A stretch of 63,998 nucleotides of DNA, counting the filler, from Lenisia limosa (Eukaryota > Protista > Breviatea), in the NCBI GenBank assembly GCA_001655205.1. It is 13 parts of 13 records of this genome, joined end to end, with 100 filler letters (N's around TTAATTAATTAA, not from the genome) between each part and the next. Parts side by side here need not be neighbours in the genome. Positions count along the whole stretch, not along the records: positions 1 to 3,044 come from LPNZ01004606.1; positions 3,145 to 6,807 come from LPNZ01008006.1; positions 6,908 to 24,324 come from LPNZ01009979.1; positions 24,425 to 29,706 come from LPNZ01007443.1; positions 29,807 to 32,842 come from LPNZ01008426.1; positions 32,943 to 46,412 come from LPNZ01007677.1; positions 46,513 to 48,590 come from LPNZ01001386.1; positions 48,691 to 51,282 come from LPNZ01010799.1; 5 more parts are not named here. The stretch is one strand, 5' to 3'. Each line of letters opens with the position of its first letter. Positions within the stretch are counted from its first letter, which is position 1. The notes below the pieces were generated by a model. It did not search any database. It was not told the DNA's origin and was given only the letters and a program-made list of their open reading frames with translations. Shown here in pieces: positions 100 through 63,998 of the stretch. The translations under genes and the position numbers were made by a program.

Positions 100-1537
100 A
101 CGGAGAGCTAACTCTGACTGTTGCCGGAATCGAACTGAGTAGTGTCAAGTCTTTCAAGGATATTTGTAGGAGGTTTCTTTTTTAAAAAATAGAATAAAAA
201 AGAATTGAAGACAATAAATTTAATCTATATTATGTACATAAACAGATTTTCTGAATCAAGAAATATGGTATATGATATGTTATTATATATATGTCAAATC
301 TGAGTTAAGAACTGTGTTTGTGGCATCCCCATGTAATATATGCATATATTTGTTTCCCTAGATTTCTTATGTTTATTATTTCTCTTGTTCAAACAAAGAA
401 TAGATTTTGGGTTTTATTATTCATAAATTTTCAATTTTTACTTCACCCTCCACACATCACACCCCATCCCCGTCCCCCTCCACAGTGTTTGTTTTGTTTT
501 TTTAACCATTGTATGTTTCCTAAATCCAGAAACAGAATAGATTCTGGGTTTTTCATAAATTTTCAATTTTCACTTCACCCTTGACAGTGCACAATATGAT
601 GCTGCGAGCGTTCGTGACGTTTACCTCCATCACCACGTTATCCTACATCCTTGATCAAGTCTTTCTCACAGGTTCGCTTATGCGTGGTTTATTATTTTTA
701 TTGTTATTTTTTCTTGTTTTTTTTTTTTTTTATATCTTGTTTTTTTATTATGGATTTATTGAGAAATTCTACTTATAATATACTTGGGAGGCACGCAGAA
801 AGCTGTGTGCACAGTTGTTAGACAAATGATTGGGTGAATTAAAATCCAGTATTTCTTTATAAGCGTGAAGGTGTGGACGGCTTCGGACAGATACTATCTT
901 ATTTTTTTATTTCTCATTGATATATATTCATGACTAGATTGGGGTGTGATACCCGAAATTACCGCTTCTCTCATTGCTTTCCTGCGCCCCGCAATCATGA
1001 CCTCACGGACAAGTGGCCAGCTTTTGCAGGTAGGTTTTCATTCTGGTCTGAAAAAGACCGGTAAAATATTGATAACATAACTTATTAGATAGACATGTGT
1101 GAAGCTATTTGTAATATATGTATATACAAAAAAATGTATATAATTAATACTATATAGATATAATATATTGATATAGATATAGAATGTGTTTGCTGGGGAG
1201 GCACGCAGAAAGCTGTGTGCACAGAGTTGCAAGGCAAATGATCAAGTGAATTAAAACAAACTATTATTCAATATCTCTTGTAAGCGTGATGGTGTGGACG
1301 GCTTCGGTCAGATACAACTTGTGTTATTGCGCATATACTACATATAGTATACCATACACTGACTGCGGTTCGTACGAATGCCCATCGATTTTATAAACAA
1401 GATATAGCACTAACAATCAGATATTCACTTACTCAATATAGGGTATTTTCTCGGCCCTTCGATCGGCCAGTGTGGTAGATATTCAGACATGTATTCGTCC
1501 CGTTGTGGAGCAGTATGCGAACGGCATGGCTGACCAG
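100..1537 (+). CDS. Multi-exon gene fragment, unknown protein
   Basis: Four exons splice in frame through GT-AG introns: GELTLTVAGIELSSVKSFKDI|LHNMMLRAFVTFTSITTLSYILDQVFLTGSLM|HWGVIPEITASLIAFLRPAIMTSRTSGQLLQ|TCIRPVVEQYANGMADQ. No family recognised; incomplete at both ends. Confidence 0.5.
786..900 (+). mobile_element. Dispersed intronic repeat family D
   Basis: GAGGCACGCAGAAAGCTGTGTGCACAG...GGCAAATGATTGGGTGAAT...GGTGTGGACGGCTTCGG..CAGATAC. The same sequence recurs at 1196, 6935(-), 11360, 30595(-), 46820, 57555, 60843 and 63343(-). Confidence 0.75.
1196..1320 (+). mobile_element. Dispersed intronic repeat family D
   Basis: Near-identical to the 786-900 copy, in the next intron. Confidence 0.75.
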
Positions 1538-2364
1538 GTAATAAGAGAGTGTTTGGGATGTAACATAAGGCTTCACTTCGAAAAAAGACTGGGTTTCCTG
1601 GTAGAAAATTATCGATATTTACAAATATTTTTCGAACCATGTGACAGGGGTTGATAGGGGGGGGGGGGATACTGNNNNNNNNNNNNNNNNNNNNNNNNNN
1701 NNNNNNNNNNNNNNNNNNNNNNNNNNNNNNNNNNNNNNNNNNNNNNNNNNNNNNNNNNNNNNNNNNNNNNNNNNNNNNNNNNNNNNNNNNNNNNNNNNNN
1801 NNNNNNNNNNNNATCGAGATGATGAGTTCTAATTATATGTATGTTGTTTTTCTTTTGTCTTATTCACTGTTTAGTATTGAGTTGTATACTACATAATATA
1901 TGTGTATCTTCCTATTTAGTCCGTTTTATTATCAATATTGGAAGAAGGCGGTTTTGTTGTCGAAAGCAAATATGAATCTATATAGTATATGATATTAATT
2001 TCGATTTATACTTGGGGATTCACCACACCTGACGTATCGACTTAGAATTATCTTGTATTATTTGGGAATCCGATAAATTTCTTCGAATTACCATAAAATT
2101 CCATGGGATTCCCAGTCGATCACATATCGAAATCGGAAGATTGAAAGATTGATTAGAACCGAGTAGATGAGCTAGAGTTATAGCCAGCAATGGTTGCCGG
2201 ACCAAACAATTGTACAACGATGATTTAACGGTCTTTTTGGGACCATGTTGAAGTCCAATTAACGCACCCATTTGCGCTCTCACAATTAGTATTTACGTTT
2301 CATATTTTTCACAATATATAGAGCTGTCTCTCCTCCCTGCCTCGATTCCCTAAACTTCTTAACT

Positions 2365-2455
2365 GCTTCATTTCGGTTCGAAAAACGCAGGTAAAATCAA
2401 TAGCTTTCAGGATTTATCAAGAAATTCAGTCTTATTTTCGAACTTAAGTGAACTC
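2365..2455. mobile_element. MITE family A, degenerate copy
   Basis: GCTTCATTTCGGTTCGAAAAA...TTTTCGAACTTAAGTGAAC terminal inverted repeats; core in reverse orientation. Confidence 0.65.
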
Positions 2456-3044
2456 TCAACAAATCAGTTTGTGAAACTGTGTTGGAGACAACGTCACCAT
2501 ATACTGAAGTTCATTCCCCCCTAATATCCAAGCTCCAAGAATTGACTTTCTGCTTTTTTGTTTCAATTTTCATACGCTGGAGTGGAGGGATGCGTTGCTG
2601 AAGAAGCGACTGGCCTNNNNNNNNNNNNNNNNNNNNNNNNNNNNNNNNNNNNNNNNNNNNNNNNNNNNNNNNNNNNNNNNNNNNNNNNNNNNNNNNNNNN
2701 NNNNNNNNNNNNNNNNNNNNNNNNNNNNNNNNNNNNNNNNNNNNNNNNNNNNNNNNNNNNNNNNNNNNNNNNNNNNNNNNNNNNNNNNNNNNNNNNNNNN
2801 NNNNNNNNNNNNNNNNNNNNNNNNNNNNNNNACAACAGAATACTAAGAAAGGTAATAACGATACATGAGGCTACTTCGACGCTAACTGTTCCTGAAAATA
2901 TCAGGTTTTCTGGCAAGGATATTAATAATAAGAGTGGGGGGCAGGTAGTGGGCTGAATCTATCAATGTCTTATTATTTTATTTCTGGCATTGTGAAACAA
3001 ATAATAAAATGATGGAACTATAACCTCCCCCCCTTTGCGTCAAA

Positions 3045-3144
3045 NNNNNNNNNNNNNNNNNNNNNNNNNNNNNNNNNNNNNNNNNNNNTTAATTAATTAA
3101 NNNNNNNNNNNNNNNNNNNNNNNNNNNNNNNNNNNNNNNNNNNN
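3045..3144. other. Artificial scaffold-joining linker
   Basis: 44 N + TTAATTAATTAA (3089-3100; stops in all six frames) + 44 N. Confidence 0.97.
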
Positions 3145-3400
3145 TTATTACGCGTTGGCGACCAACCTGAGCGTTGTTACTTTTGCTGTTTTCAAGCGCT
3201 TTTCTAGTTTCAATGCGTAACATAGTTAATTTTGGGCTATTTTGTTTCATAACTATTCCCATTTACCATAAATTTTAATTCCCCCACTTCAAAGGCTGGC
3301 TCGGGCTTGTTTTTGTTTTTGTGTTTTTGTCATCTGGCTTTTGTCAAGTTTTAGCGTTGGTGGTCATGTTTGTTATTGCTTGTTTTTTGTTTTTGTTTGT

Positions 3401-3490
3401 TTGGAGGTCAGATTATTCGGTTCGTGATTAGTGCCTTTACGCCAATATTCTTCATCGAAATTTCCTTCGTTTTACCTCCCCTCCCCCCAT
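3401..3490 (+). mobile_element. Dispersed repeat family C
   Basis: TTGGAGGTCAGATTATTCGGTTCGTGATTAGTGCCTTTACGCCAATATTCTTCATCGAAATTTCCTTCGTTTTACCTCCCCTCCCCC; homologues at 32711, 35021, 38288, 52618(-), 54085(-), 59457. Confidence 0.75.
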
Positions 3491-4108
3491 CCTATTGAGA
3501 AGCAGCGATATGTGGAAGCGTGAACATAATAACCCATCATTTGCTCAATGGTGGTGCTATTGAATAAAACAACTTTGGATTTGTTTGTGTTGTTTGTTGT
3601 CTGAAATTTCTTTTCAATATAGATCTTGCTGCAGCGACTGGGCTGAGCTTTGTTGTTTTTGTTTTTGTTTCTAACTTTGTGTGTTTCTCAAATGTTTTTG
3701 CAACAGAGTTGATTCCCAGGTTGTTTTTGTTTCATAAATTCCCCTTTTTACTTTGTTGCTTGCTTTTGTTGTTTTCAGCCCTCGTGTGTTTCTAGTCCTC
3801 CTCCAGAGATGACTTTGGGTTGTATTTCATACCCCCCCCCCCCNNNNNNNNNNNNNNNNNNNNNNNNNNNNNNNNNNNNNNNNNNNNNNNNNNNNNNNNN
3901 NNNNNNNNNNNNNNNNNNNNNNNNNNNNNNNNNNNCATAAAAAAAGAGTTGCTTATTATCAATAAGCGAATCAGACCAAGCTACTTGTTTGTTCTCTGAA
4001 AAGTCAAATTGTTAAATGATCATGAAAAGTAATGTATTTTACTATTATGTTTTCGATTGAAAGAGTATTGTATTATTTGAAGCCCAAACTTCAATCTAAT
4101 CCACGCAG

Positions 4109-6790
4109 ACAGCCCTGGGCTTCAGAGCTCTTTGGAAGGTTACCGTAAGATCATAAGAGAACTCGAGGCCGATATGGCGAGACTCGAGGACTGGACTGAG
4201 CAGCACATGCAGCTGGTGGAACCTTTTAAGGTTCGCCTAAATGGGCTTTATATAATTTTATTTATGATTTGCTACCACTTGAGGGGGGGGGGGGNNNNNN
4301 NNNNNNNNNNNNNNNNNNNNNNNNNNNNNNNNNNNNNNNNNNNNNNNNNNNNNNNNNNNNNNNNNNNNNNNNNNNNNNNNNNNNNCAGTTTCTAAGGGAT
4401 TTGAGGTTTTGTATTGTTTCTTCAATCTCTCCCCTCCAAATTTTGGGGTTGTAATGTTTGTTTATTTTCGCCCCCTTCACTCGAATACGCTCCAACAGTT
4501 ATTCGATGGGGTTGGACAGTTATTCGATGGGTTGGACAGTTATACGTGTGCTCTTGTTTACCTTCTTTCGTTCTCTCTTTCTCTCTCTCTCTTTCTTTCT
4601 TTCTTTCTTATATAATTTCCACCCAGACGGCGACACACAGTCTTGAAGCCCTCAAAACCCGAGTCAGTGAGGTTGAGGCAGGTCTTCCGAAACATATGCC
4701 TGCGGGGAACAAAAAAGTGTCACCTATTGAGAGGTACGCACGCTGTTGTTATATTGTCACTTTTTAGGTCATTTTCATACTGTAAATCCTTAATAAACCC
4801 TCGAAAAATTCTCAATAAATCCAGTAATCCTCGATAATTATCGATTCTTCTCAGACTAACCCAGTAGGAAGCAAGACAAACAGCCGGACCCTGTGTCCAC
4901 TGCAAAGACAAGTACGTGGAATATGATATGATAATGCTTTTAAAACAAAACAAGTAGTAACTATACGATTATGTGTTTGCTTATGCTTTTTGAAGGAAGC
5001 CAAGATGTATTGAGTATGTGCTCTCCGTTCTTTTTAAAGGCAGCAGTGACAATTATTACACATCATATGATATCCTGATATATTTGCTGTTTTTGTGGCA
5101 ATCTCGTCTGTCACCATATCATCTCGAATACCATAATATGATATGAAAGCTCGATTAATTGAGCACATAACCCTTAAAGGTCGTCCCACAACCGCCGCTC
5201 CAAGGAAGCGGAAGAGGGGAATGAGAGAGGTTTGTCGGGTTTGAATTTGGGCGTCACTTCGGTTCGAAAAAAGGGTCTTTTTCAGACCAGAGTGACCCTA
5301 GTTTGAAGATAAAATATTTGTTAAATTATATCGCCTCTGCTTTGTTTGTTTTGTTGTTCTCAACCTTCGTGTGTTGCTAGCCAACATAGTTGATTTCGGG
5401 CTTTATTTTTTGTTTCATAAATTTCCAATATTATCCCTAGGTGGTTGGCCTTCGTCTTGTTGGAGAATCCGAACTGGCAAGTGTACCGCAGTATCTCCGC
5501 GGGCGTCTCACCGCCGAACAGTGGGGGATGGAAGTCAGATTTCACTCTTATCTGAAAAAGACGGATAAAATATCGATGATTTATCGAGAAATTTAGTCTT
5601 TTTTCGAACCGAAGTGAAGCCCTAGTTGGAAACTTGGATAGCTTGTACATGTACATACATAAGTATATATTGATTTTATATAGCGTAGATAAAATTCTAA
5701 ACGCCTACTGATTTTGAATTACCATTTCCCTGCTTAATGTCAACCCTTATACATTAAAAGTCACCTCTTTTCGCGACTATTTTCATAGATATGATCTATA
5801 ATCAAATAATATGTTTCTCCCCCTTTTTTAAAATCCCTGCCCATGATTTTGGGTCTCATACTTTGATGTTTGCTCTATTTCTTCTTGTCTATTTCTTCTA
5901 CTCCCTGTTTTGCTGTTCTTGTGTCAGTTACCTCTGAGTACATCTGCTTTATAGTTTAAAAGATTGAAATTCTGATTACCAGGATCAACACTGCCATTGA
6001 AGAGTACAACGCGTTGCTGGTGGAGAAGTACGCTATTGCTGACTTGCCATTTAACTCAAAAATGAACACACAGACTCTAAAGAAATGGGAGGTTTGTGGG
6101 GATTGAAAATCTGCTTTAGAGAGGGGTGTGTGGGAAGCAATATATAGGATGACCTTGGCCCGGACCTTAGAGTCGAAATGTTGAACAAAGATAACACGAG
6201 GGTTCATCCCGAGTGTATCAGAGTATCATTGAGACCACTCAATTATCACACGAGTGGATATGGAATATCATACCACGACGCGGAAAATGATAGTTCCACG
6301 TGTAAAAAAAGGAAGATGATCTGAGCTAAAGCTCCCATTGAATTGCAATGGAATTGACCAGCTTAGATTTGGCATGAACAAGAGAACGAAGATGTACGTG
6401 GCATGTTCTTCCTTGAAGAAAAAGAAGTGGGAAAAAATAAGTTGTTTTTTTTTGTTTTTTTTTGGTGGGGGTATCATATTGTATTTAATGTAGTATACAC
6501 TCACTGCGATAAGTCCTAACACAATTTACTGAAGATAGAGCTCAATATCCGTTTCAGGATTTATCGCGGTCAGTGTACCTATCATGATATTAGAAGTGCT
6601 CTTAAAATGGCGCCGGGTCTTTATAACACTAGCTTCAATAGAGACTTTACTGCAAAACAATGTTTTTACGTCATTTACACCAATCCAGGTAAGAGTATTG
6701 CCCTCCATCGGCCTTCGATTCAAAACCGTCACATCTGTCTTACGTCACCTCAAGAGGATAAAGGAAGTCAGGTACGGGGGGGTAGGATAA
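4109..6790 (+). CDS. SKA1: Spindle and kinetochore-associated protein 1 (multi-exon, 5' and 3' ends uncertain)
   Basis: Spliced peptide ...ELASVPQYLRGRLTAE(Q)INTAIEEYNALLVEKYAI...KKWE|IWHEQENEDVRGMFFLEEKE|VRVLPSIGLRFKTVTSVLRHLKRIKEVRYG matches the Ska1 microtubule-binding domain as remembered (VPxYMKGRLT...KY...GRYFIVE...LRHxxRLxEVRGGG), after an N-terminal coiled coil. Confidence 0.8.
5249..5298. mobile_element. MITE family A, internally deleted 50-bp derivative
   Basis: GGGCGTCACTTCGGTTCGAAAAAAGGGTCTTTTTCAGACCAGAGTGACCC followed by TA; only the two TIRs remain. Confidence 0.7.
5335..5440 (+). mobile_element. Repeat family B, 3' part ending at a SKA1 splice acceptor
   Basis: ...GTTCTCAACCTTCGTGTGTTGCTAGCCAACATAGTTGATTTCGGGCTTT...CATAAATTTCCAATATTATCCCTAG|exon (AG at 5439-5440). 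Confidence 0.75.
5536..5622. mobile_element. MITE family A
   Basis: Right TIR TTTTTCGAACCGAAGTGAAGCCC followed by TA; reverse-orientation core; inside a SKA1 intron. Confidence 0.8.
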
Positions 6791-6807
6791 AGGAAGTCAG
6801 GTACGGG

Positions 6808-6907
6808 NNNNNNNNNNNNNNNNNNNNNNNNNNNNNNNNNNNNNNNNNNNNTTAATTAATTAANNNNNNNNNNNNNNNNNNNNNNNNNNNNNNNNNNNNN
6901 NNNNNNN
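6808..6907. other. Artificial scaffold-joining linker
   Basis: 44 N + TTAATTAATTAA (6852-6863) + 44 N. Confidence 0.97.
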
Positions 6908-29806: not shown

Positions 29807-29905
29807 TGTTTTGTTGTTATCAACCCTTGTGTGCTGTCAGCCAACAGAGTTGATTTTGGGCTCTTTGTTTATATAAATTGTCCAATTTTATTCTCTCCCC
29901 CTCAG
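29807..29905 (+). mobile_element. Repeat family B, 3' part ending at a splice acceptor
   Basis: TTATCAACCCTTGTGTGCTGTCAGCCAACAGAGTTGATTTTGGGCTC...ATAAATTGTCCAATTTTATTCTCTCCCCCTCAG|exon. Confidence 0.75.
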
Positions 29906-37999: not shown

Positions 38000-38173
38000 A
38001 GTACCTGAATTCCTGATAAACTGATCTGCCGAATGTATTTATATTATTACTCTTTTATGAAAATAAACAAAGGGGTAAGGAACAACCAATTAAGCCGAAC
38101 CGAATTGAATTAGCATAAAGTGCATTAACTTACGAAATTTGAAAGAATGGGAAGAAGGAATTAAATAGTTTGT

Positions 38174-46400: not shown

Positions 46401-46412
46401 CAATTTTTACAC

Positions 46413-48690: not shown

Positions 48691-49556
48691 CACTTCTCTG
48701 GCTTACCCCCCCACCCCACCTTAGCAGTGTCCACTTCTCTGGCGTTCTCAGCCTGGCTAACTTCCGAATCGACAATCAACTGATCATGCGCCTAGAGGGT
48801 CAAGAAAGAAAAACTTCTTGATGATCATGTGCCGGTAAGTGAAATACGCATCTTGCGCTTTTCTTCGGACTAGGTAGGGCTTCATTTCGGTCCGAAAATA
48901 GACATATAATCTATCAACCCCCCTCTAACCGATAGAGCGGCGGNNNNNNNNNNNNNNNNNNNNNNNNNNNNNNNNNNNNNNNNNNNNNNNNNNNNNNNNN
49001 NNNNNNNNNNNNNNNNNNNNNNNNNNNNNNNNNNNNNNNNNNNNNNNNNNNNNNNNNNNNNNNNAATGGCTAGCTGCGACCTTCGGAGTCATATTTTGAT
49101 TTTGGAATTCAAAAAGAGCCATCAAAGCCCTTTTTCATATTATTAAAAAAAACCCACGAAAAAAAGCAAGCTCACGAGGAAGGGGGATGGAATAGCAAGT
49201 TCTCGAGTTTGAGGTCTCTATGGCAAATAGACTTACTGTGAATGAAAACTAAAATTGTGAACAGGGGATTTAAATTGGACAATTTATGAAACAAAAAAAG
49301 GCCTTACAAACCTGTCGGCTAGCAACACTTTACGGTTGAAATAATAATAAAACAGACTAGTAGCGCGTCACATTCCCCTTCTATCCTTTTATTTTGGTTG
49401 AAACCTTCTTTTTCCATTAAATTTAAACGCTTCACTTACAAACACAACAACAGNNNNNNNNNNNNNNNNNNNNNNNNNNNNNNNNNNNNNNNNNNNNNNN
49501 NNNNNNNNNNNNNNNNNNNNNNNNNNNNNNNNNNNNNNNNNNNNNNNNNNNNNNNN

Positions 49557-50862: not shown

Positions 50863-50875
50863 AGTATAATATATA

Positions 50876-51382: not shown

Positions 51383-52910
51383 TCCTTGGTGTGGTGGATG
51401 ATAGTGAGTTGCCGGGTTAGCTCAGACGAGTCCAGGTAGTAGCGGTCTTCAGAGAGCCGCGTTCTGTACGGTTACAAATGGTGCTAAGTGAACGACTCAG
51501 CCACCAATCAGAACACTGTATTTGTCAATAGTTTAACTTCTTCTTTGAAGAGTGACCCCTTCAAATGTACATCATATATGATATAGTATACCACCCTCTC
51601 TGTTTATTTCCTTTAATATACATATGATATGTAATATTTTTCGCAACATACCCATCGCTCATAGTAACAGGGGCAGCATGCGACCTCAATGAGGTGTAGT
51701 AAGCCATTGCAAGTGCTCGGTCTGGATGCGTTAAACACACGAACTGTTTCAGCTTGTCCTTGATAAATTTCGATCAATACTATCATTCTTCAGCAGGATA
51801 GCCCCAATACCTTCAGTCAGGTCTGTTTGGACAAGGGATGCGGTAGCGGTCTGGCCTGGAACAAGCAGAGACGTCAACTCAGCCCGGAGAGTAGGCCACC
51901 ACATGGAGGTCCGCGAGAAGACCGGGTAGTTCGAGTGCTCCCTGGGGGTGAGGCAAGTTGGGCTTATAGGAATTTAGGAGAGTGCCAATATCCGAGTGCT
52001 GATATGTTTAACTTTCACAAAACGGAAGAACTCAATAACCCAGCCAACTTTATGACGTAAATGCTGAAGGCTACTTTCGGGGCAAATGCTGGTAGGAAAG
52101 TAGAGGACGGTGGTGCAAGAAGTTGGCGCAATGTACGGGAGACAAGGCCGCCTGAACTGTCATTTCTTCATTTGCCAAGTGAACGGCTCAACATAACTTA
52201 ATCACCCTCCCCCNNNNNNNNNNNNNNNNNNNNNNNNNNNNNNNNNNNNNNNNNNNNNNNNNNNNNNNNNNNNNNNNNNNNNNNAAAAAAGTCACCCCCC
52301 CCCCTTCTTTTTTTGTAATCCCGTTATCCCTCCCTCCACCAACCAAGTTGGGCGGTAAACACGTCCACCGCGTGGTCGGCATCGTCGCCTGTTGTCATAA
52401 CGAGGGGGAAGGAACATGAGTGCAGCGGGAAGGAAACATGGGAGGGAATGTAAAATATCATTAGCTATATATATATACGGGTGTTCTTTTTCTTTTCGAT
52501 ATTATGAGTAAATATGCAAAAATAGAGATCATATTTCCATTCTGGTAAACAACTGGAATACCAACCTTCGTCCTCACCACCCTGGATCAGCGTTGATGAA
52601 CCCGAGACTTTAGCCGACTGGGGGTGGGGAGTAAACGAAGGCAATTTCGATGAAGAATATTGGAATGGGGGTAATGGAAAACTAATAAAATGTGAAGTAA
52701 CATCTGTATATCATATAGCTAATACACGAGAGGGGAGACTGCTCAAAATTAACCACAAAATAATAATTTCTCACAAGTAGCAACTTGAAAAAGGACACAA
52801 ATATTATCAGCTCACTATGCTTAAACGCTTACCCATAGCCCCCGTAACGGTCTTTACACACCCTACCGGCAACTTGCCGAGGTTCTTGAGACGGCCGCGG
52901 AGGTCCTTAC
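51383..52910 (-). CDS. Multi-exon internal gene fragment; last exon weakly resembles the start of a RasGEF catalytic domain
   Basis: Exons DLRGRLKNLGKLPVG, GDDADHAVDVFTAQL, EHSNYPVFSRTSMWWPTLRAEL, FVCLTHPDRALAMAYY, RYYLDSSELTRQLTIIHHTK (cf. ELARQLTL). The function call is weak. Confidence 0.45.
52618..52663 (-). mobile_element. Family C 3' end forming a splice acceptor
   Basis: Minus strand: CCAATATTCTTCATCGAAATTGCCTTCGTTTACTCCCCACCCCCAG|exon. Confidence 0.7.
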
Positions 52911-53172: not shown

Positions 53173-54533
53173 GCCTCGGCGAGCTGTAGGGGGGGGGGTG
53201 ATGTGATACAGTGTTTTTGATTGATTGGGAGGTGGTGATATAGTATTTTTGATTGATTGGGAGGTGGTGAGATACTGTTTTTGATTGATTGGGAGGTGGT
53301 GATATACTGTTTTTGATTGATTGGGAGGTGGTGATATAGTGTTTTTGATTGATTGGGAGGTGGTGATATACTGTTTTTGATTGATTGGGAGGAGGTGGTG
53401 GTGAAATTTGAAAATTTATGAGAAAGAAAAAAAAAGAGAGAGAGCCCAAAATCAACTCTGCTGATTAGGGGAGGGGGGAAATACTGTATTGGGAGAGAGT
53501 GTAAAATACTGTTTTTGAATTACTAGACAAAAGAGAGAAAAAAAACCCTGAGAAAACACACAGTATCAGTTAGGAACCAGTGAGAGGGTGGGTTCCAAAA
53601 AGCGGTCCTTTAATCAGGCACTTTCCCCTTTTCCCAAAGCTTGCCCTATTAAAACCTGGACGTACTAATACTATATATGATAAGTATAAATCCCCCGCCC
53701 CCCACCTATATGACACTACATGTTGTATATTATAATATAATACAAAGTATAACCCTCCCACCTCCTGCTGGTACTCTCCTATAGCCTCGTCAGCCTCAGT
53801 CTTGTACTGCTCAAGCCCTTCAATTTCCATTCGAGAGGTTTCCAGCTGTTCTTCCAGGTCTGAGGGGAAGAGGGTAAGGAGAAGGACATTTATGAAACAA
53901 CAACAAAAATAGCCCAAAATCTGAGTGTGTGTGTGGGAACAATGTTACGAGGGGGGGGGGTGGTTAGAAAGTCTATGAAACGAAAAAAAATATGCCCAAA
54001 TCGATTCTGTTGGCTAACAAAGGGGGTGAAAATGGATGTAAAAAGAGGGGGATCCGAGGTTTCGAGTTGTTCTTAAGGGTCTGAGGGGAAGAGGGTAAAA
54101 CGAAGGACAGTTTGATGAANNNNNNNNNNNNNNNNNNNNNNNNNNNNNNNNNNNNNNNNNNNNNNNNNNNNNNNNNNNNNTGGCGTAAAGGTACTAATCA
54201 AGAAACCGAATAATCTGAAACTTCAAACAATATAAAAAAAACTCTTAATAAAAAAAACAAAAAAAAAAACAACAAATCTATTAAAAATGGAAAATTTTAA
54301 ACAAAAAAGCCCAAGCAAAACAAACAAAGCCAAGGCCAGTCGCTTCTGCAGCACCGCATCCCATTATTCCAGCTACGGGGACAGCAATGGTGATTTCCCC
54401 GAAATCCCTGTCAAATACAGTATAGTATGGTACCAATGACATCATAAGACTCCCCCCGAATCTGCTCACCATTTATAGAACTGTGCAAACGAGCCGTTTC
54501 TTCAGTAGTTCCCGCAACACTTTCCTCAGCCTT
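53173..54533 (-). CDS. Coiled-coil protein, internal fragment
   Basis: KAEESVAGTTEETARLHSSIN|DLEEQLETSRMEIEGLEQYKTEADEAIGEYQQE|LAE, in-phase GT-AG junctions. Confidence 0.6.
53211..53400 (+). repeat. 32-bp intronic minisatellite, about 6 copies
   Basis: Unit (G/C)TGTTTTTGATTGATTGGGAGGTGGTGATATA repeated head-to-tail with no spacers. Confidence 0.92.
54030..54082 (-). pseudogene. Diverged duplicate of the 53859 exon start, with an in-frame TAA
   Basis: CCCTCTTCCCCTCAG|ACCCTTAAGAACAACTCGAAACCTC versus the true CCCTCTTCCCCTCAG|ACCTGGAAGAACAGCTGGAAACCTC. Confidence 0.65.
54290..54375 (-). mobile_element. Repeat family B (5' and tail portions)
   Basis: Minus strand: GCTGGAATAATGGGATGCGGTGCTGCAGAAGCGACTGGCCTTGGCTTTGTTTG...TTTAAAATTTTCC. 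Confidence 0.75.
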
Positions 54534-55438: not shown

Positions 55439-57870
55439 CCGACATGGGGCAAGGACATCAAGCTAATTTCGGGGGCATACAACAGCTTCTGTGCTGTTAA
55501 CTTTGGTTGGTAGTTCTGAGAGCTTTGTTCGAGTGTTACATGGAAACTATCTATGACACTAGTCTTTAGCAATAGTGGCACACTTCTACATTATTCATAA
55601 TAATGCATAATAGTATAGTATTATAATATATCATATATATATATATATATACACTGTATATATGGTCCTAATGTGTATTTGTTTCCGTTGTCTTGTATTC
55701 AATACATATTGTTTTAAAAAAACAAATCAAAACTATGATCTATAACTGCAGAAGCGACTGGCCTGAGCTTTGTTTGTTTCGTTGTTATCAACCCTCGTTT
55801 GTTGTCAGATAACAGAGTTGCTTTTGGGATTTTTTTTTTGTTTTATAAATTTTCCAATTTTACTCCCCCCCCCCCNNNNNNNNNNNNNNNNNNNNNNNNN
55901 NNNNNNNNNNNNNNNNNNAGGTAACCAGATCAAATGCATAGGCTTCAATGGCCAAGGCCAAATTCCTGACATGTCTATTGGGGTACATGCCAACACTATT
56001 CAGACGTATTCCGGACTGATCACCCAAACAATTACATCAATTCAATCCGGCCTCCACCATTACGCTATCCAAAGTGGGAGCTTGTTATTCGGATTTGTAG
56101 CTGACCTATTTTGTTCTTCGGATTTGTTGCTGTGATCTATTTTGTTCTTCGGATTTGTTACTGAGACCTATTGTGTTCTTTCGGATTTGTTGCTGTGACC
56201 TATTTTGTTCTTCGGATTTGTTGCTGTGACCGTTGCTGTGACCTATTTTGTTCTTCGGATTTGTTGCTGTGAGCTATTGATGTTTTGGGTTTTGTTTCAG
56301 ACATTTCCATTATCACCCTCGCAGCAAGTGCCGGACATGTATACACTTGGGGCTATTCGTACTACTACCAAACTCTCCAGGGTTCCGCAACATCTTCTTC
56401 AACTATCGCTCTTGTGAGGGGGGGTAAGCGTTTTGATGAATAATATTGGCCAAGCTGGACTATTCACAAATCGTTGATAAAAGGACATGATATGGTGGCA
56501 GGAAAATCTCCAATATGAAACCCCAAATTGACTCCACATCCTTGCAATAAGTAGAAACACACGCATAACGTAAAAAGGAGAGCAAAGTGTCGTAAATTTC
56601 TTAGAGCTTTATTTGGTCCAAAAACACTGGCAAAGCTATTGACTGCTTCTCTAGATTCTATCTTTTTGGAACTCAAGAGCTCTGATTACATCTTTTAAGG
56701 AGAAGTACATATAGCGCTATGCATATCATATCATATGATAGTACATACATACATATGATATTACAGGATATATGATATATCATATCAGATATTCTATGTG
56801 GTTATTTTTTAGGTTAACTTTGGTGATGGTGAAGTGTCTACCGAACTATATGCTCATGTTTATCACACCGTTTCAAAAAGATGTAAAGGGGGAGTGTAGG
56901 TGGCAAGATGATGCACCAAATGAAATAGTGTGTAGTCTGTTTTATTTGGTGGGGGGGGGGGGGGGNNNNNNNNNNNNNNNNNNNNNNNNNNNNNNNNNNN
57001 NNNNNNNNNNNNNNNNNNNNNNNNNNNNNNNNNNNNNNNNNNNNNNNNNNNNNNNNNNNNNNNNNNNNNNNNNNNNNNNNNNNNNNNNNNNNNNNNNNNN
57101 NNNNNNNNNNNNNNNCGGCTATGTAGGGGGGGGGGGGTTCGATTTAGAAAATTGTCAAACAAGTTTCCAAACGGTTCCACTCATGCCACTCATAGTTTAG
57201 TCGGGAACAGTGGAAAAAGTCATTCCGCATCACTATGGATCTGTGATTATTACTGGTGAGCTCCTCGCCTTATATTTTTGAAGTGTCACTCGTCAAGCCC
57301 TCTTTTCCATATATTACACAGTATATGGTAAAGGCTGTAGCCATTGCTCAAGCGATGCATTTAATTTCCATCGGCAATGCATATGAGACGCCGAATGCCA
57401 AACGTCCTATCACCCCTCAGACCAACACGAAGCATTTGGTCGTGGTAGCAGCGCCAAAGCTATTAACAATTGCGCCGACGTCACCCTCGACATCAATGAC
57501 GACTACATCCCGGTACGTACTTGTTCTGATTCTTAGTAGCTGTTAACGTTGGAAGGGAAATGATTGGGTGAAATATTATTATCTATAATCCAACATCTCC
57601 TATACCCGTGATGGTGTGAAATCTTATATTAAAAACAATAATTGTTCATTATGTCTTATTGAGCCTGACATCTACATTTATTTCTCATTCATGTGATTCA
57701 CCTCGGTCTGAGAAAAGAATGATATTCTCGATAAAAACTATCAATATATATTTTTTATCTTTTTCGGACCGCAGTGAAGCTCCCCTCATTCCCCGTTCAG
57801 GTCAACGGACCGATCCAAGGTTCTGTGAAGGAGGTCCATTGTGCCGCCCATTCCTGCGTCTATGTTACAC
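55439..57870 (+). CDS. RCC1/BLIP-II-like beta-propeller repeat protein, internal fragment
   Basis: TWGKDIKLISGAYNSFCAVNF; QIKCIGFNGQGQIPD...ITSIQSGLHHYAIQ; VEKVIPHHYGSVIITG; EAFGRGSS. These resemble RCC1-type CWGxNxxGQ and IxxIxxGxxH segments. Confidence 0.55.
55745..55875 (+). mobile_element. Repeat family B, near-full copy upstream of an acceptor
   Basis: CTGCAGAAGCGACTGGCCTGAGCTTTGTTTG...TTATCAACCCTCGTTTGTTGTCAGATAACAGAGTTGCTTTTGGG...ATAAATTTTCCAATTTTACTCCCCCCCCCC, then a gap, then AG. Confidence 0.8.
56082..56277 (+). repeat. ~31-bp intronic minisatellite, about 6 copies
   Basis: Unit TTGTTCTTCGGATTTGTTGCTGTGACCTATT with small indels; begins 8 nt after the GTGGGAG donor at 56074. Confidence 0.9.
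57693..57783. mobile_element. MITE family A
   Basis: GATTCACCTCGGTCTGAGAAAAGA...CTTTTTCGGACCGCAGTGAAGC. Confidence 0.7.
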
Positions 57871-58290: not shown

Positions 58291-58390
58291 NNNNNNNNNN
58301 NNNNNNNNNNNNNNNNNNNNNNNNNNNNNNNNNNTTAATTAATTAANNNNNNNNNNNNNNNNNNNNNNNNNNNNNNNNNNNNNNNNNNNN
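58291..58390. other. Artificial scaffold-joining linker
   Basis: 44 N + TTAATTAATTAA (58335-58346) + 44 N. Confidence 0.97.
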
Positions 58391-58411
58391 AATGACAACT
58401 CATACTATCCC

Positions 58412-58535
58412 AAGCTGGAGTGATGTGGTGTGGTGCTGCAGAAGCGACTGGCCTTGGCTTTGTTTGTTTTGCTGTTCTCAACCCTCGTGTGTTGATAGCC
58501 AACAGAGTTGCTTTGGGTTTTTTTGTTTCATAATT
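58412..58535 (+). mobile_element. Repeat family B, full-length copy
   Basis: GCTGGAGTGATGTGGTGTGGTGCTGCAGAAGCGACTGGCCTTGGCTTTG...TTCTCAACCCTCGTGTGTTGATAGCCAACAGAGTTGCTTTGGG...TTCATAATTAC. Confidence 0.8.
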
Positions 58536-59456
58536 ACACCCACACCCCACTATATACTAATTTTTGCAGTGGTGACGTCCGAGGCTTGGGGGCGCTCTCT
58601 TCTGCCGACCTCATTACACTCGAGGCGTTTTTGGGTTGGTTTCATGGTGAAAAAAGAGACCAACAATAACAAATTACCATATTTCCGCACTCCTTGACCC
58701 CTCTCCCCAAGTTTTGTCTGTATTAGTGGGGCCCTTAGATCCTTATCTCTTTGAACAAAACCCTTGTTTCAGGTTTGACTATTTAGGTAAATAACTGAGC
58801 CAATAAAAGGCCCAATTGGACCGCTAAAGAAGACTTCGCGATGATACCCCCATAGTTATCCTAAGGTACCCTAAATTCCCCTCTTTTTGTGTAACAGCTG
58901 TTTCGTGTGTATATTATTCTGTGTGCTATTCAGATCTCAAATTTCTCTTGTTAAAATCTGGAGCTGACTTGGGGGTTAGGTTTTTATTACACATTGACTT
59001 GGGGTACAATCTTTCTCAGAAATTATCAGTAGAGTATTAACATCTATTAATAGACTTTTTTTTTTTGACTTAACGTCAATAGAATGTGTAATTCTGGGAA
59101 ACCTAGGTAAATAGGGCATGTGGGTAAATTGGATATCACAGCCTCAAGAAAAAGCATGTCATTTAGTGTACGGAATTCAAAGTTTGATTTTTCCGGTTTT
59201 ATATCCAAAATGTACTTTTCAAATTTCGATTTTTGAGAGAAAGATCTCGCATAGATGAGTTCCATTGGCTCATCATTTTTAGGTTATGTGATACGGATTT
59301 TGAAGATTTAAGTCCATAACTTTTAAAGTTCGACACCCCCCCCCCCCAGGNNNNNNNNNNNNNNNNNNNNNNNNNNNNNNNNNNNNNNNNNNNNNNNNNN
59401 NNNNNNNNNNNNNNNAAATAATCAATTTAAACAATAAACAATATTTCTCATTCCTG

Positions 59457-59537
59457 TTGGAGTTTCAGATTATTTGGTTCGTCGTGGTTAGTACTAATAT
59501 TTTTCATCGAAATTTCCTTCCTTTTATTTCCCCTCCT
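59457..59537 (+). mobile_element. Family C copy
   Basis: TTGGAGTTTCAGATTATTTGGTTCGTCGTGGTTAGTACTAATATTTTTCATCGAAATTTCCTTCC. Confidence 0.65.
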
Positions 59538-59789
59538 TTACAATCATTACTTATATACTATAACCATTGCATGAGTTGACAGTATCCCCCATAATCCCAG
59601 ACTAATGGATGATGAATGACATCTGCCCAGGGGTATAATTTTTGTCATATAATTCTGCACAGGCAGCCCAGAAATCTTCAACTCACCAAATACGAATGTA
59701 CGAATTGCAAAATAACATATGATCAAAAAAACGAAGAGTATAGAATGATTGGTTTTCTACTGCAGCTTTTCATGCTTCAGAAACTGGTG

Positions 59790-62466
59790 TTGGATAGTCT
59801 TGTTTTTGTACTTGGAGATAATGCCATTTGAGAGCCAAATACACTGCCGGGGTATCGTCTATTTCCCGATCCGCCGCCGGGTCCTCCTCTCGCGTTACTC
59901 CAAAAATGTATCATAACAACCCCATGAAATATTGGTTATCTTATTTGAATTTATGGTAAATGGACCCGATCCAACCGTCCAGTGGGGTCCAGTCCAATAT
60001 ATATACTAAATTATTCGAATATACGCCTCCTAGTAGCATAAAAATATTACGACTTTTCGTATATCATTTTAATGTGACAATGTCGCATCTACGCTGGCAT
60101 GTAAAAATATGCGACGCATATACGATAAAGTTATGAGGTAAATTGAGTAATTCTGACGGTCTGAGTATTTGTAGGCACAAGGAAAAGGATAACCTGTTGA
60201 GCAGGCTAGATTTCAGGTTGCGGTCACCAATGCTTTGCTATCATCTCCAAATGAACAGGGAAAAATAAAAGCAATAAATAAACCATAAAACAAGTACAAA
60301 TATACACGTAATCTAACACACAAGTAAAAGCAAGCACAATTACCACTGTCTCCTGCTGTGACCCTATGATTTAGACTGCCTTTTGAGCTTTTGGTACCAC
60401 TGGGGGGTTGGTGCTTGTTGAAGGTTCTACAAATATAAACAGGGGGATGGGGGGGGGGGGGTNNNNNNNNNNNNNNNNNNNNNNNNNNNNNNNNNNNNNN
60501 NNNNNNNNNNNNNNNNNNNNNNNNNNNNNNNNNNNNNNNNNNNNNNAACATGAAACAAAACAAAATTCGGGAGGGGAGTACTCTTTTGGCTGACAACACA
60601 CGGGTTGAAAACAACAAAACAAAGCTCAGGCCAATCGCTGCAGCACCGCATCCCATCACTCCAGCTTAGTATTAAGAATATTAAATAAGTGTGTACACAT
60701 GATAGTATATCATATGATATATACAATGACTGGAGTAAGTCTTGACCAGGGGAAAAGGGTCAAGACTTATCCCGGTCACTGTACATATCGATATTCGTCT
60801 TTGGATCTATATAGGACCATCACGCTTATAAAAGATATTGAATTATCATTTGCCTTACACTCTGAGCACACAGCTTTCTGCATGCCTCTGTAGTACACAG
60901 AGGCACGCAGAAAGCTGTCTGTACAGAGTTGTAAAGCAAACATAATATAGGACCCCAACCTTGGCTACGTACTTCTGCTGCAGATTGATGACAGCTTGAT
61001 TACTTTGATTACTACGTTGTGTGGGTACGGGGTTGGTGTACGGGGGAATCATGGGGGGGTTCTGGGGAATTAAAATGGGAAAATTGATAAAATGGGAAAC
61101 TCTATGAAACAAAAACAAAATGTCCAACAAAACTCAAAAAACACTATTAGAAAAATGTTAATTGGTTGATAGAAACACACAAGGGTTGACGACAAATCCA
61201 AATACGGCCGGTCTGGTTTTGCCCCCATTTATCCCACCCTCCCTGCTATATTTTTCAATGTTACTTGGGGATCCCCTATGGTCCCCAAAAAGACTGAATT
61301 TCTCGATAAATCCTCGAAAAATATCGATAGTTGACCAGTCTTTTTCGGGCCGTGGAAGCCCTCCTTATTATCCACACCCAACCAATCAGCATACCCTCCC
61401 TCCTCCAACTTAATTTATTATCTTAATAATATGCTGTTTGTTGTAGTATTGAGTGAGTTCTATTCTGATAATCCGCAGTAGACTCCAACTTACAGAAGAG
61501 TGTCGGTATATCGAGGGGTTAGGTGGGACATTGGGCTGTGTGTAGTGGATCTGTGAGGCGTGTTCCTGAGTTATTCAATAAAGGCGATAAAATGAGAAAA
61601 TTTATAAAACAAAAAAAAAAGAGCCCAAAATAAATTTTGTTGGCTGACAGACAACACACGATAACAACAAAACAAATAAAGCTCAGGCCAGTCACTTCTG
61701 CAGCGCCGCGTCCCATCACTCCAAGGGGGGGGTTATATTGTAGAGTTAAAGCAGGTTTTAGATAAAGTGTTGTATCATATTTAATCTTTTCAGCTAACCC
61801 GCGAAACAACGTCCTCGTCATGGCATAAAGTGGTACGATGATGCCCATTGCTTGCCGAGTCCGTTTGAGATGATGCCGACACCAAGACTTTCGGGGAGAA
61901 TTTCAGCTCCTGTGCAGCCGTCTATGATCGTTAAATTGGGGAGAGGCCTGAGGTGCATATCGATAAGAGTAAAAATAACACGTGACAGGGCGGTTGATAA
62001 AATGAAGTGTTTCCACAATATCACATAAGAATACTCCCTCCAATTTAACTTTTACTTCCATATTAGGTAACCCCCCCCCCTATTTACCACATTAGGCAAC
62101 TTCTACTTCGCAACCCCCACCTGGTCCTCCAGTCGCCGTAATACCGTATTAGTCTCCTCTAGCTCCAATTTCAACTGCAAGAGCTCTTTTTGGGCCAGAG
62201 ACTCCACTTCGTCAATTCTCATCCGTTGCTCCTCCTCGCATGCTCTCTGTGCGTCCTCCCCAGCCTCGCGCAATTCGCGTAGCTTTCTTGCGTGATCACG
62301 CGCAGCAGTTCGGCTCCATTCCTCAGCCTCGTCGTCAACTTGCCTCATACGGAAGTCCTGCGTGTCTGTCAACGACGCCCGCTTTGAAGAAAGATGGGCT
62401 GCTTTGTCCTGGATTTCGGCTTCGGCCGCAGGTACTGTGAATCTCAGCTGATCTAACTCTCTAAAG
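59790..62466 (-). CDS. Coiled-coil plus low-complexity protein, internal or C-terminal fragment
   Basis: Large exon ...TQDFRMRQVDDEAEEWSRTAARDHARKLRELREAGEDAQRACEEEQRMR...LRRLEDQ|ELKFSPKVLVS...|EHASQIHYTQPNVPPNP|PPMIPPYTNPVPTQRSNQ. 3' extent uncertain. Confidence 0.6.
60548..60665 (-). mobile_element. Repeat family B, full-length copy
   Basis: Minus strand: GCTGGAGTGATGGGATGCGGTGCTGCAGCGATTGGCCTGAGCTTTG...TTTCAACCCGTGTGTTGTCAGCCAAAAGAG...GTTTCAT. Confidence 0.8.
60724..60781. mobile_element. MITE family E, 58 bp, TA-flanked
   Basis: TA|CAATGACTGGAGTAAGTCTTGACC AGGGGAAAAG GGTCAAGACTTATCCCGGTCACTG|TA. Confidence 0.7.
60843..60938. repeat. Head-to-head family D 5' ends forming a ~45-bp-arm hairpin
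   Basis: TTTGCCTTACACTCTGAGCACACAGCTTTCTGCATGCCTCTGT-AGTAC-ACAGAGGCACGCAGAAAGCTGTCTGTACAGAGTTGTAAAGCAAA. Confidence 0.8.
61268..61361. mobile_element. MITE family A, subfamily 2
   Basis: GGGATCCCCTATGGTCCCCAAAAAGACTGAATTTCTCGATAAATCCTCG...GTCTTTTTCGGGCCGTGGAAGCCC; nested beside a B copy. Confidence 0.75.
61590..61722 (-). mobile_element. Repeat family B, full-length copy ending about 25 nt before an acceptor
   Basis: Minus strand: GGAGTGATGGGACGCGGCGCTGCAGAAGTGACTGGCCTGAGC...CAGCCAACAAAATTTATTTTGGGCTC...ATAAATTTTCTCATTTTATC...CTCAG|exon. Confidence 0.8.
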
Positions 62467-62566
62467 NNNNNNNNNNNNNNNNNNNNNNNNNNNNNNNNNN
62501 NNNNNNNNNNTTAATTAATTAANNNNNNNNNNNNNNNNNNNNNNNNNNNNNNNNNNNNNNNNNNNN
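62467..62566. other. Artificial scaffold-joining linker
   Basis: 44 N + TTAATTAATTAA (62511-62522) + 44 N. Confidence 0.97.
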
Positions 62567-62777
62567 GCGGGGAGGGGGGTTATGGGTCAATCTCATCATC
62601 TTCGTATCACTCCAATCTGCTTTCACTATATATAAGCAGATGTAGCTACATGACCACTAAGATTCCAATATTACTTTAATACTCCTCTTCCCCCTTGTTT
62701 TTCTTTTCTTAATACTATTAGATTACAACACCCCCCTTTTTAATTTTTTTTTTTATTATTCCTCCCCCCCTCCCATC

Positions 62778-62892
62778 TCACCTTCAACTCCTCCCATCTT
62801 GCACGTTCTGCAAGCTCCTCTGGGCTTTCCTCCTCAATTTCCGCCTCAATTTCGCTTTCATCCATATCTTCGGCTGGGTCAAGATCTAGGCT
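62778..62892 (-). CDS. Acidic exon of an unknown gene
   Basis: TAG|SLDLDPAEDMDESEIEAEIEEESPEELAERARWEELK|GTGAG. Confidence 0.5.
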
Positions 62893-63172
62893 CTATGGAG
62901 GTGAGAAAAGGGGAAAAGAGGAAACTATTGTAAATAATAGTCATAATAAAAATAGGAAAATAAATGACACAAAAGCCAAAAGTTGCGCGGGAGGTGAGAC
63001 AATAATAATAATTAAAAAAAAATATTCCAAAATGTTGAGGGTTGAGGTGATAAATATCGATATTATAATGATAAATCCTTGATAAATATCGATATTTTGC
63101 GGTATTTTTTGGACACTTTCTGAAACCTTGTTAAAGCGACACTTATAGAACCAAATGTGTGTCTTGGGATTA

Positions 63173-63270
63173 GAGCTTCACTTCGATTCGAAAAAAGACC
63201 GAATATCTCGATAAATCCTAGAAAAATATCGATATTTTACCTGTCGTTTTTTTGGACCGAAGTGAGACCC
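63173..63270. mobile_element. MITE family A
   Basis: TA|GAGCTTCACTTCGATTCGAAAAAAGACC...TTTTTGGACCGAAGTGAGACCC. Confidence 0.8.
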
Positions 63271-63342
63271 AGCTTTGGAAATATACAAATAAAAGCCCCA
63301 TTTTATTGCAGAGTAAAAACAAAACAAAACAAATTTGCAACT

Positions 63343-63450
63343 GGCCGAAGCCGTCCACACCATTACGATTATGAGAAATATTGGATTATAGTAAAATGGA
63401 ATTCACCCAATCATTTGCCTTACAACTCTGTGCACACAGCTTTCTGCGGG
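63343..63450 (-). mobile_element. Family D copy
   Basis: Minus strand: GCAGAAAGCTGTGTGCACAGAGTTGTAAGGCAAATGATTGGGTGAATT...GGTGTGGACGGCTTCGGCCAG. Confidence 0.75.
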
Positions 63451-63998
63451 CCCTCCCAACTTAACTGTATAACTACCACTCCATCCACCAATTCATCACA
63501 TACAATGATCAGGATAAGTCTTGACCTTGGCAGATATTCTACTGGTGTTTTCCAGCCCGTATTCCAGCGCACAGTGTTTTTCAGCCCGTTTCCCAGCATA
63601 CCTGTACGGAAGACTCGGTCTGGTAGGGCTTCAGAGATGTGGGGTCTGGTGGAGTGAAACGAGGAAAATTTCGGGGACTTTAAAATGGATGGGGGTGGTG
63701 TGTAAACATAAAAACAATTTAGGAAGAAAGAAAGAAAAAGCCCAAAATTTATTCTATTGGGGAGGTTTGAAAACAACAAAACAATAAAAGTCCAGACCAG
63801 TAGCTTCTGCAACATCCTCATCCTCAGATCTCAATAATCCAAAAATTTATCTTGTATTGTCGAGCAAAAAAACAAAAAAAGAAAACAAAAAGAAAACAAA
63901 AAGAAAATAAAAATAAAATAAAATAAAATAAAAAAAATCATCCAGAATGCCCCCCCCCCCCACCGTCCTCGAGGATTTCGGTTTTGCTTGGCTTCTTT

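What the first reader, a model, noticed from the sequence alone, without database searches (positions are those of the whole stretch)
395..63820. Repeat family B is strand-locked to host genes and its tail builds 3' splice sites
Seen: a ~130-170-bp element (GCTGGAGTGATGGGATGCGGTGCTGCAGAAGCGACTGGCC...T-rich...CTCAACCCTCGTGTGTTG...GCCAACAGAGTTGATTTTGGG...TTCATAAATTTTCCAATTTTACTCCCC). It occurs whole or in part at about 395-587, 2576, 3215, 3627, 5335, 25440(-), 29807, 31345, 49260(-), 53400(-), 53865(-), 54290(-), 55745, 58412, 60548(-), 61065(-), 61590(-) and 63715(-), on at least 10 unlinked fragments. Every copy I could orient is on the sense strand of the surrounding gene. In many the tail runs directly into the acceptor AG (586, 5439, 29904, 31412, 53860, 61062) or ends within about 35 nt of it (58568, 61566). 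It has no TIRs and does not start at the donor, so it is not a classical whole-intron introner. Inference: either a mobile element that targets or supplies branch point and pyrimidine tract, a family of intron-encoded RNAs, or strong selection against antisense copies. Caveat: host orientation is weakly supported for two or three fragments.
Basis: partly seen in the sequence, partly recalled or inferred. Interest (0 to 1): 0.75.

Follow-up and report, generated by a model that had tools for sequence, protein, structure and literature searches.

The report
Repeat that docks at splice acceptors
A short, very abundant repeat in an intron-rich flagellated microbe faces the same way as its host gene and usually ends just before the splice acceptor, likely because its tail lands on the C-runs that mark intron ends and reversed copies, which would add false acceptors, are likely weeded out.

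Summary
Family B is real: 18 profile hits on 9 scaffolds, all 18 sense to their 10 host genes, against 12:10 for a hairpin MITE in the same window. Nine of 12 measurable intron positions end within 60 nt of an acceptor. RNA contigs use all 5 B-adjacent acceptors tested. B has no hairpin, Rfam match, tRNA head or shared donor, so it is not a MITE, snoRNA or whole-intron introner. The conserved tail stops 6-36 nt short of the AG, so B likely supplies the branch/pyrimidine zone rather than the AG; no branch point was shown. New: family D has a related tail and abuts acceptors in sense and donors in antisense (3 each), and one head-less B tail lies antisense near a donor. Here donors are G-rich and acceptors C-rich, so a tail that docks on C-runs reaches both ends. 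Antisense B carries acceptor-like sites, so selection likely removes it, as argued for Alu. Mobility is inferred; no genome or relative was available. New variant of a known kind; interest 0.5.

The parts
395..447 (+). B tail-only module, tandem with the next copy
   Evidence: E 6.5; 32.6
478..579 (+). B, head-less; ends 23 nt (profile end) before acceptor AG 586-587
   Evidence: E 1.5e-4; frame
2576..2616 (+). B head; runs into an N gap
   Evidence: E 1.2e-5
3158..3269 (+). B, diverged; first of a B-D-B-B cluster before the placed SKA1 exons
   Evidence: E 1.7e-10
3386..3488 (+). family D copy inside the B cluster
   Evidence: E 2e-28
3628..3829 (+). two tandem B copies (3628-3744, 3764-3829)
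   Evidence: E 2.9e-11 and 6.4e-5
5333..5437 (+). B, head-less; ends 6 nt before acceptor AG 5439-5440 of an SKA1 intron
   Evidence: Pfam SKA1 positions 133-154 then 156-188 on successive exons
16476..16506 (-). head-less B-like tail in ANTISENSE, 25 nt after donor 16451, at a G-run
   Evidence: score 27.4 vs control maximum 23.3; E 2.2
25442..25513 (-). B head and middle in a GAS8-like intron; tail hidden in a gap, about 100 nt or more from acceptor 25267, 25-37 nt from the donor
29807..29895 (+). B, cut by scaffold start; ends 15 nt before acceptor AG 29904-29905
32710..32784 (+). D/B-type tail, sense, at acceptor 32789
35002..35107 (+). D, antisense; tail abuts donor 35110 of a minus-strand gene
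38278..38365 (+). D, antisense; tail abuts donor 38369 of the SHIPPO-repeat gene
49265..49358 (-). B, head-less; ends 36 nt before acceptor 49236 of a kinase-like exon
52616..52677 (-). D, sense; tail at acceptor 52618
53397..53463 (-). B tail module followed by a tandem repeat
   Evidence: E 0.0024
53870..54020 (-). two B tail modules; the last (weak) ends 27 nt before acceptor 53860
   Evidence: E 2.1e-7 and 0.31; frame
54056..54119 (-). decayed duplicate of tail, acceptor and first 26 nt of the exon (matches 53835-53896)
   Evidence: 82.8% over 64 nt; 46 vs shuffled maximum 24
54181..54376 (-). B with an internal deletion (54280-54376) followed by D (54181-54242), same orientation
55746..55875 (+). 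near-consensus B lacking 20 nt of head, then a C-run and a 43-N gap before RNA-used acceptor 55919-55920
56290..56320 (+). degenerate B tail at RNA-used acceptor 56323-56324
   Evidence: (24.4)
56419..56472 (-). D, antisense; tail abuts RNA-used donor 56414
   Evidence: E 4.4e-4
58412..58544 (+). full-head B; ends 25 nt before RNA-used acceptor 58568-58569
60548..60667 (-). full-head B; 121 nt (84 of them N) before RNA-used acceptor 60427
61060..61222 (-). diverged B with repeated tail modules at RNA-used acceptor 61062
61583..61723 (-). full-length B; ends 21 nt before RNA-used acceptor 61566
63651..63822 (-). B (63728-63822) then a weak D-type tail (63651-63673) at acceptor 63646
   Evidence: E 1.4e-12; E 0.62

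Best explanation
B is a high-copy intronic repeat of about 140 nt, likely a non-autonomous mobile element whose tail likely docks on C-runs, and its sense-only orientation likely comes from selection against reversed copies, which would add false acceptors. Shown: the family, its orientation, its closeness to used acceptors, a tail related to that of family D, and D's two-way placement. Inferred steps: (1) a partner enzyme elsewhere in the genome copies B and D; an RNA route primed by pairing of the C-rich tail with a G-run end fits the constant tail, ragged head, tandem arrays, B-D chimeras and lack of TIR or TSD, but a DNA route is not excluded. (2) C-runs lie before acceptors on the sense strand and after donors on the other strand, so insertions arrive sense at acceptors and antisense at donors. 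(3) Sense B is tolerated because its T-rich tail has no AG and can serve as the new branch/pyrimidine zone in front of the host's C-run and AG. (4) Antisense B carries two or three acceptor-like sites in its head and is purged; D lacks them and persists both ways.
For: Orientation 18:0 vs MITE 12:10. 6 of 7 wholly measured introns have B ending within 60 nt of the acceptor vs 1.6 expected, P 3e-4. 5 of 5 B-adjacent acceptors tested are used in RNA contigs. D tails score 17-23 against B tails in 4 of 5 copies (fifth 10.6) vs a maximum of 14.2 for 26 plain acceptor regions. D tail at acceptors in sense (32789, 52618, weakly 63646) and at donors in antisense (35110, 38369, 56414; the last RNA-used). 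GGGG within 20 nt of 14 of 44 donors, CCCC within 20 nt of 16 of 44 acceptors. Best acceptor-like score in 6 B copies: antisense 5.7-9.2 bits, sense 4.2 or less; real acceptors median 4.9; antisense D 5.2 or less. The one antisense B-like piece lacks the head. Run X1: contigs leaving the tail continue into a C-run (98 contigs, agreement 0.61); for 62 contigs the consensus after the C-run begins AG (agreement 0.35); head-to-tail joints and internal deletions of about 60 nt. The tail is present in all 16 copies where it is not hidden by a gap; the head in 7 of 18.
Against: No insertion polymorphism, empty site or partner enzyme was seen. Summed X1 depth at the head (about 600,000) is not lower than at the tail (about 297,000), which does not show the 5' truncation gradient expected of retroposition (different reference copies, and the depth is not a copy number). 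The splice matrices come from only 28-29 introns, and antisense MITE A holds sites of 5.3-6.5 bits yet is kept 10 times. Sense B holds donor-like sites up to 7.2 bits and is tolerated. D's symmetry rests on 3 and 3 copies, one weak. Three of 12 measurable B positions are more than 60 nt from the acceptor, one of them donor-proximal. No branch consensus could be found.
Confidence: 0.45

Rival explanations
1. Splicing- or transcription-coupled insertion: B is the 3' part of an intron RNA that is joined back into other pre-mRNAs at their acceptors, reverse-transcribed and recombined in, replacing intron 3' ends; sense-only by mechanism.
For: Explains 18:0, acceptor proximity, constant tail, ragged head and lack of TIR/TSD at once. 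Micromonas introners occur only in sense, with remnants inside canonical introns, and were proposed to move by reverse splicing (PMC3879977, passages). One intron holds a decayed duplicate of acceptor plus exon start.
Against: Related D tails lie antisense at donors, which this route cannot make. The last 6-36 nt before the AG are not shared among copies. The duplicate acceptor appears in only 1 of 11 B introns. One antisense B tail.
Confidence: 0.2
2. Untargeted repeat sorted by selection alone: B inserts anywhere; antisense copies are purged and sense copies last longest near acceptors, where the T-rich tail helps splicing.
For: Sense introns are T-rich (37% T, 28% A). Family C is also mostly sense and has antisense acceptor-like sites. 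Alu shows a sense excess near exons ascribed to antisense cryptic acceptors (PMC3088655, passages).
Against: Mid-intron sense copies should be near neutral, yet B crowds the 3' end. D tails abut donors within a few bases, where they give no acceptor benefit. Mammalian TEs are depleted near acceptors.
Confidence: 0.2
3. Decayed whole-intron introner: B-bearing introns began as copies of one intron whose 5' halves have since been overwritten.
For: Sense-only, 3'-anchored; the head holds a donor-like site (3.6-5.9 bits).
Against: No intron among 44 curated starts with B; donor-to-B distance 37-421 nt with unrelated donors, while head pairs reach 92% identity.
Confidence: 0.08
4. A family of intron-encoded small RNAs (snoRNA-like) that must be sense and near the acceptor to be processed.
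For: Size, strand and place fit; a C-box-like word with one mismatch lies in the head (sequence read directly).
Against: No Rfam match at E<=1; folding z 0.2-0.7; truncations, deletions and chimeras; thousands of matching contigs; RNA contigs on B are few and shallow (9-10 contigs), in a polyA library that would miss small RNAs.
Confidence: 0.04

Closest known systems
Human Alu near exons (PMC3088655, passages)
   Same: Sense excess near exons ascribed to selection against cryptic acceptors on the antisense strand.
   Different: There TEs are depleted near acceptors and the bias is partial; B is enriched at acceptors and 18:0. B has no 7SL/tRNA head, poly(A) tail or TSD that I could find.
Micromonas introner elements and their remnants (PMC3879977, passages)
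   Same: Repeat intron sequence found in sense; partial copies inside pre-existing introns; nested or merged copies.
   Different: Those are whole introns at new positions and the remnants are a minority without splice sites; B never spans an intron here, and its relative D lies antisense at donors.
Introners that carry one splice site and recruit the other from the target (10.1101/2022.06.06.494994 and 10.1101/2020.10.14.339549, passages)
   Same: A mobile element contributes to splice signals, often in one orientation.
   Different: They make new introns inside exons, many with TSD or TIR; B remodels existing introns. The introner screens filter out such secondary insertions, so this class is not counted there.
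SINE-like families that share a 3' tail with a partner LINE and insert by microhomology (recalled; only a search listing seen)
   Same: Constant tail shared across families, ragged 5' ends, chimeras, no TIR.
   Different: No Pol III head or partner LINE was found; the tail ends at a C-run.

Membership tests
Introner (whole-intron element) | Similarity reaches both intron boundaries | tested here: not met
   Donor-to-B 37-421 nt in 8 of 8 introns; donors unrelated
Introner (whole-intron element) | Sense to host transcript and removed by splicing | tested here: met
   18 of 18 sense; RNA contigs skip the B introns tested
Introner (whole-intron element) | Present/absent at new intron positions versus relatives | not testable with these tools
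   No genome or relative held
MITE / TIR DNA transposon | Terminal inverted repeats | tested here: not met
   Folding z 0.2-0.7 in 3 copies vs -7.6 for family A; self-complement match is internal
MITE / TIR DNA transposon | Target-site duplication | tested here: inconclusive
   3 full-head copies: two share a 6-mer away from the boundaries, one nothing; C-run flanks could hide a duplication
SINE / non-LTR retroposon | tRNA, 7SL or 5S-derived head | tested here: not met
   ARAGORN 0 genes; no Rfam hit on B; a much decayed head would be missed
SINE / non-LTR retroposon | Constant 3' end with 5' truncation | tested here: inconclusive
   Window: tail in 16 of 16 visible, head in 7 of 18; X1 depth at head not lower than at tail
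SINE / non-LTR retroposon | 3' tail shared among families or with a partner LINE | tested here: inconclusive
   B and D tails related; no partner in the window
SINE / non-LTR retroposon | Poly(A) or short tandem-repeat tail | tested here: not met
   Tails end at C-rich runs that vary by copy
Helitron (features recalled) | Terminal hairpin with CTRR end, insertion between A and T | tested here: not met
   No conserved end motif or stable hairpin in the aligned copies; tandem arrays do occur
Box C/D or H/ACA snoRNA (features recalled) | Conserved boxes and structure | tested here: not met
   no family match, no structure, CTGA word in only some copies
Box C/D or H/ACA snoRNA (features recalled) | Discrete stable small RNA | not testable with these tools
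   Only polyA contigs available

The most novel reading that the evidence does not exclude
B and D are members of an undescribed class of mobile element that homes to splice sites of existing introns and has rebuilt the branch/pyrimidine zone of thousands of acceptors in one eukaryote: a 'half-introner' that replaces intron 3' ends without adding introns, possibly through the spliceosome itself, and that introner screens discard by design.
Probability: 0.2. Interest if true: 0.8.

Novelty: new variant of a known kind. Interest (0 to 1): 0.5.

Why it matters
Mobile elements are usually kept away from acceptors, and introner surveys discard insertions into existing introns. A family that crowds acceptors in one orientation would show a route by which splice signals of old introns are replaced wholesale by repeat DNA. 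B and D also form a natural pair of controls: a related tail, different heads, different orientation outcome. That makes the old question of insertion bias versus selection testable with one genome table.

Tried and rejected
No whole genome is held, so the genome-wide orientation test could not be run. Exact-pattern scans for the B head found nothing in metagenome, viral (43) or prokaryote genome contigs (44). Earlier findings: none by place, sequence or words. A self-trained gene finder was noisy and was replaced by hand-placed exons (several chains still had phase errors) and 44 of 50 listed introns that passed a boundary check. A weak head-versus-reversed-tail resemblance of 5-7 nt was considered as a TIR and dropped. 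The B-tail HMM did not pick up typical D tails; only pairwise scoring did. A general 'duplicated acceptor' rule was rejected: 1 of 11. Branch-point motifs did not separate 3' from 5' intron ends. AG-free zones at B acceptors (15-80 nt, 11 acceptors) overlap those of plain introns (median 32.5, range 17-161, n=28). A glyoxalase I exon found outside relatives at only 39-56% identity, so the lineage was not placed. No long transposase- or RT-sized frame in the window. Summed contig depth was not used as a copy number.
Full report
Setting. The window is 13 scaffolds joined by a fixed spacer, with many further N gaps. It comes from an intron-rich eukaryote with flagellar genes (GAS and SHIPPO-repeat Pfam hits). 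No whole genome is held. A glyoxalase I exon has outside relatives at 39-56% identity only, so I did not place the lineage. Two public runs hold the DNA, from one study: X1 (kind not on record, behaves as DNA, may be the source of the window) and X2 (polyA RNA contigs). They are not independent of the assembly.

The family is real. A profile from 7 copies gives 18 hits at E<=0.003 on 9 scaffolds; the reversed window gives none under E 0.6. B is about 140 nt: a GC-rich head of about 45 nt, a T/G-rich middle and a T-rich tail. The tail is present in all 16 copies where no gap hides it, the full head in 7 of 18. Pairwise identity over the head columns has median 64% and range 48-92% (63 pairs; some pairs include unrelated flank). 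In X1, 5,660 contigs lie on the 2.9-kb scaffold with one B copy, and summed depth on B is 280,000-600,000 against 26-31 for unique DNA. The tool warns that this is no copy number; with 18 hits in 59 kb, thousands of copies are likely. X1 joints show head-to-tail arrays, internal deletions of about 60 nt and B-D chimeras.

Orientation. All 18 hits are sense to their hosts (10 genes), against 12:10 for the hairpin MITE A (22 of 25 hits orientable), 7:2 for C (9 of 11) and 5:3 for D (8 of 9); Fisher P 8e-4, 0.10 and 0.02. These tests are post hoc, and tandem copies are not independent. Host strand comes from RNA for 3 genes, Pfam for 3 and frames or motifs for 4; four copies lie outside placed exons. 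A tail-only scan found 14 sense peaks above the control maximum (7 of them its own seeds), one clear antisense peak (16476-16506, head-less, 25 nt after a donor at a G-run) and one marginal peak. The lock is strong but perhaps not absolute.

Position. Taking the 3'-most copy in each of 15 introns or clusters, 9 end within 60 nt of an acceptor, 3 are farther (25267, 60427, 63646) and 3 cannot be measured. In 7 introns with both ends and the B end visible, 6 are within 60 nt against 1.6 expected, P 3e-4. That test left out the GAS8-like copy, a miss whose tail is in a gap; it used the weak 53887 module for one intron and counted 43 N in another; the 60-nt limit was chosen after looking. RNA contigs skip the introns and use acceptors 61566, 61062, 60427 and 55920, and an RNA loose end marks 58569: 5 of 5 tested. 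Contigs show use, not efficiency. In X1, 98 contigs that leave the 58416 copy at its tail run on into the usual tail and a C-run (agreement 0.61); after the C-run of the 55746 copy the consensus of 62 contigs begins AG, while that of 196 others is blurred (agreement 0.35-0.36). This agrees with acceptor adjacency genome-wide but does not measure it.

What B supplies. The shared sequence stops 6-36 nt before the AG in the eight adjacent copies without a gap; the C-run and YAG vary. So B fills the zone where a branch point and pyrimidine tract normally lie (established knowledge), and its tail has a yTnAy word 24-52 nt from the intron end. But yTnAy is as common at 5' ends as at 3' ends of plain introns (24 of 29 each) and CTRAY is rare (4 of 29). 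Branch supply is an inference from position.

The clue from family D. D tails resemble B tails (4 of 5 score 17-23; plain acceptor regions at most 14.2, intron interiors at most 18.6), although the B-tail HMM missed them. D tails abut acceptors in sense (32789, 52618, weakly 63646) and donors in antisense (35110, 38369, 56414); donor 56414 is RNA-used. In this organism G-runs follow donors (14 of 44) and C-runs precede acceptors (16 of 44), so a reversed donor and an acceptor look alike. A tail that docks on C-runs of either strand would give D's pattern. B then needs a filter. Matrices from 28-29 plain introns score the best acceptor-like site at 5.7-9.2 bits in antisense B, 4.2 or less in sense B and 5.2 or less in antisense D; real acceptors have median 4.9. 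Against this, antisense A scores 5.3-6.5 and is kept, and sense B holds donor-like sites.

What it is not. No hairpin (z 0.2-0.7 vs -7.6 for A), no Rfam match, no tRNA, no shared donor, no boundary TSD in 3 copies, no match in three public contig collections. One intron holds a decayed duplicate of acceptor and exon start; 10 of 11 do not.

Literature. I read passages only, no supplements (bioRxiv supplements are closed; figures of nested introners in PMC3879977 were not seen and may bear on the comparison). Micromonas introners are sense-only and leave remnants in canonical introns (PMC3879977). Introners may carry one splice site and recruit the other; screens exclude secondary insertions (10.1101/2022.06.06.494994; 10.1101/2020.10.14.339549; PMC12130899). 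Mammalian TEs are depleted near acceptors, and Alu shows a sense excess ascribed to antisense cryptic acceptors (PMC3088655). Searches for the phenomenon returned no papers and no matching description in the listings; I did not search by organism, so a description in a genome paper is possible. Features of SINEs, Helitrons and snoRNAs are recalled.

Verdict. Observation confirmed; interpretation partly supported. Most likely a non-autonomous repeat that docks on C-runs and is filtered by splicing (0.45), ahead of splicing-coupled insertion (0.2) and selection alone (0.2). It works like Alu in its strand filter and like an introner remnant in its place, and is a member of neither. New variant of a known kind; interest 0.5.

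Noticed in passing
window 30016-30114, 31932-32031, 40643-40743, 63171-63270 and about 20 more: Family A: a 95-nt hairpin MITE with TA at its ends, folding z about -7.6, near 50:50 orientation; very deep in X1.
   Followed up: partly
window 784-908, 1193-1329, 57541-57620, 63322-63458 and others: Family C: about 137 nt, 7:2 sense, several copies soon after donors; antisense strand holds acceptor-like sites of 7-8 bits; an inverted partial duplicate at 60816-60940.
   Followed up: partly
window 43097-43138, 60758-60783, 63500-63539: A fifth short repeat, deep in X1 (bin 60703-60838 about 11,700), not characterised.
   Followed up: no
window 53835-53896 and 54056-54119: Duplicate of an acceptor plus the first 26 nt of its exon, upstream copy decayed, with B modules between.
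   Followed up: partly
whole window: Donors are G-rich and acceptors C-rich, so intron ends are roughly complementary; no branch consensus seen; many assembly gaps abut G- or C-runs, which hides some junctions.
   Followed up: partly
window 38170-44270 (-): Long SHIPPO-repeat gene with many introns; exon-sized stretches 39950-40013 and 41175-41238 are 94% identical.
   Followed up: no
window 53193-53397 and 56102-56296: Intronic tandem repeats, the first starting right after a B tail.
   Followed up: no
window 3489-3627: Between D (ends 3488) and B (3628) lies a possible small exon after an acceptor-like site; not tested.
   Followed up: no
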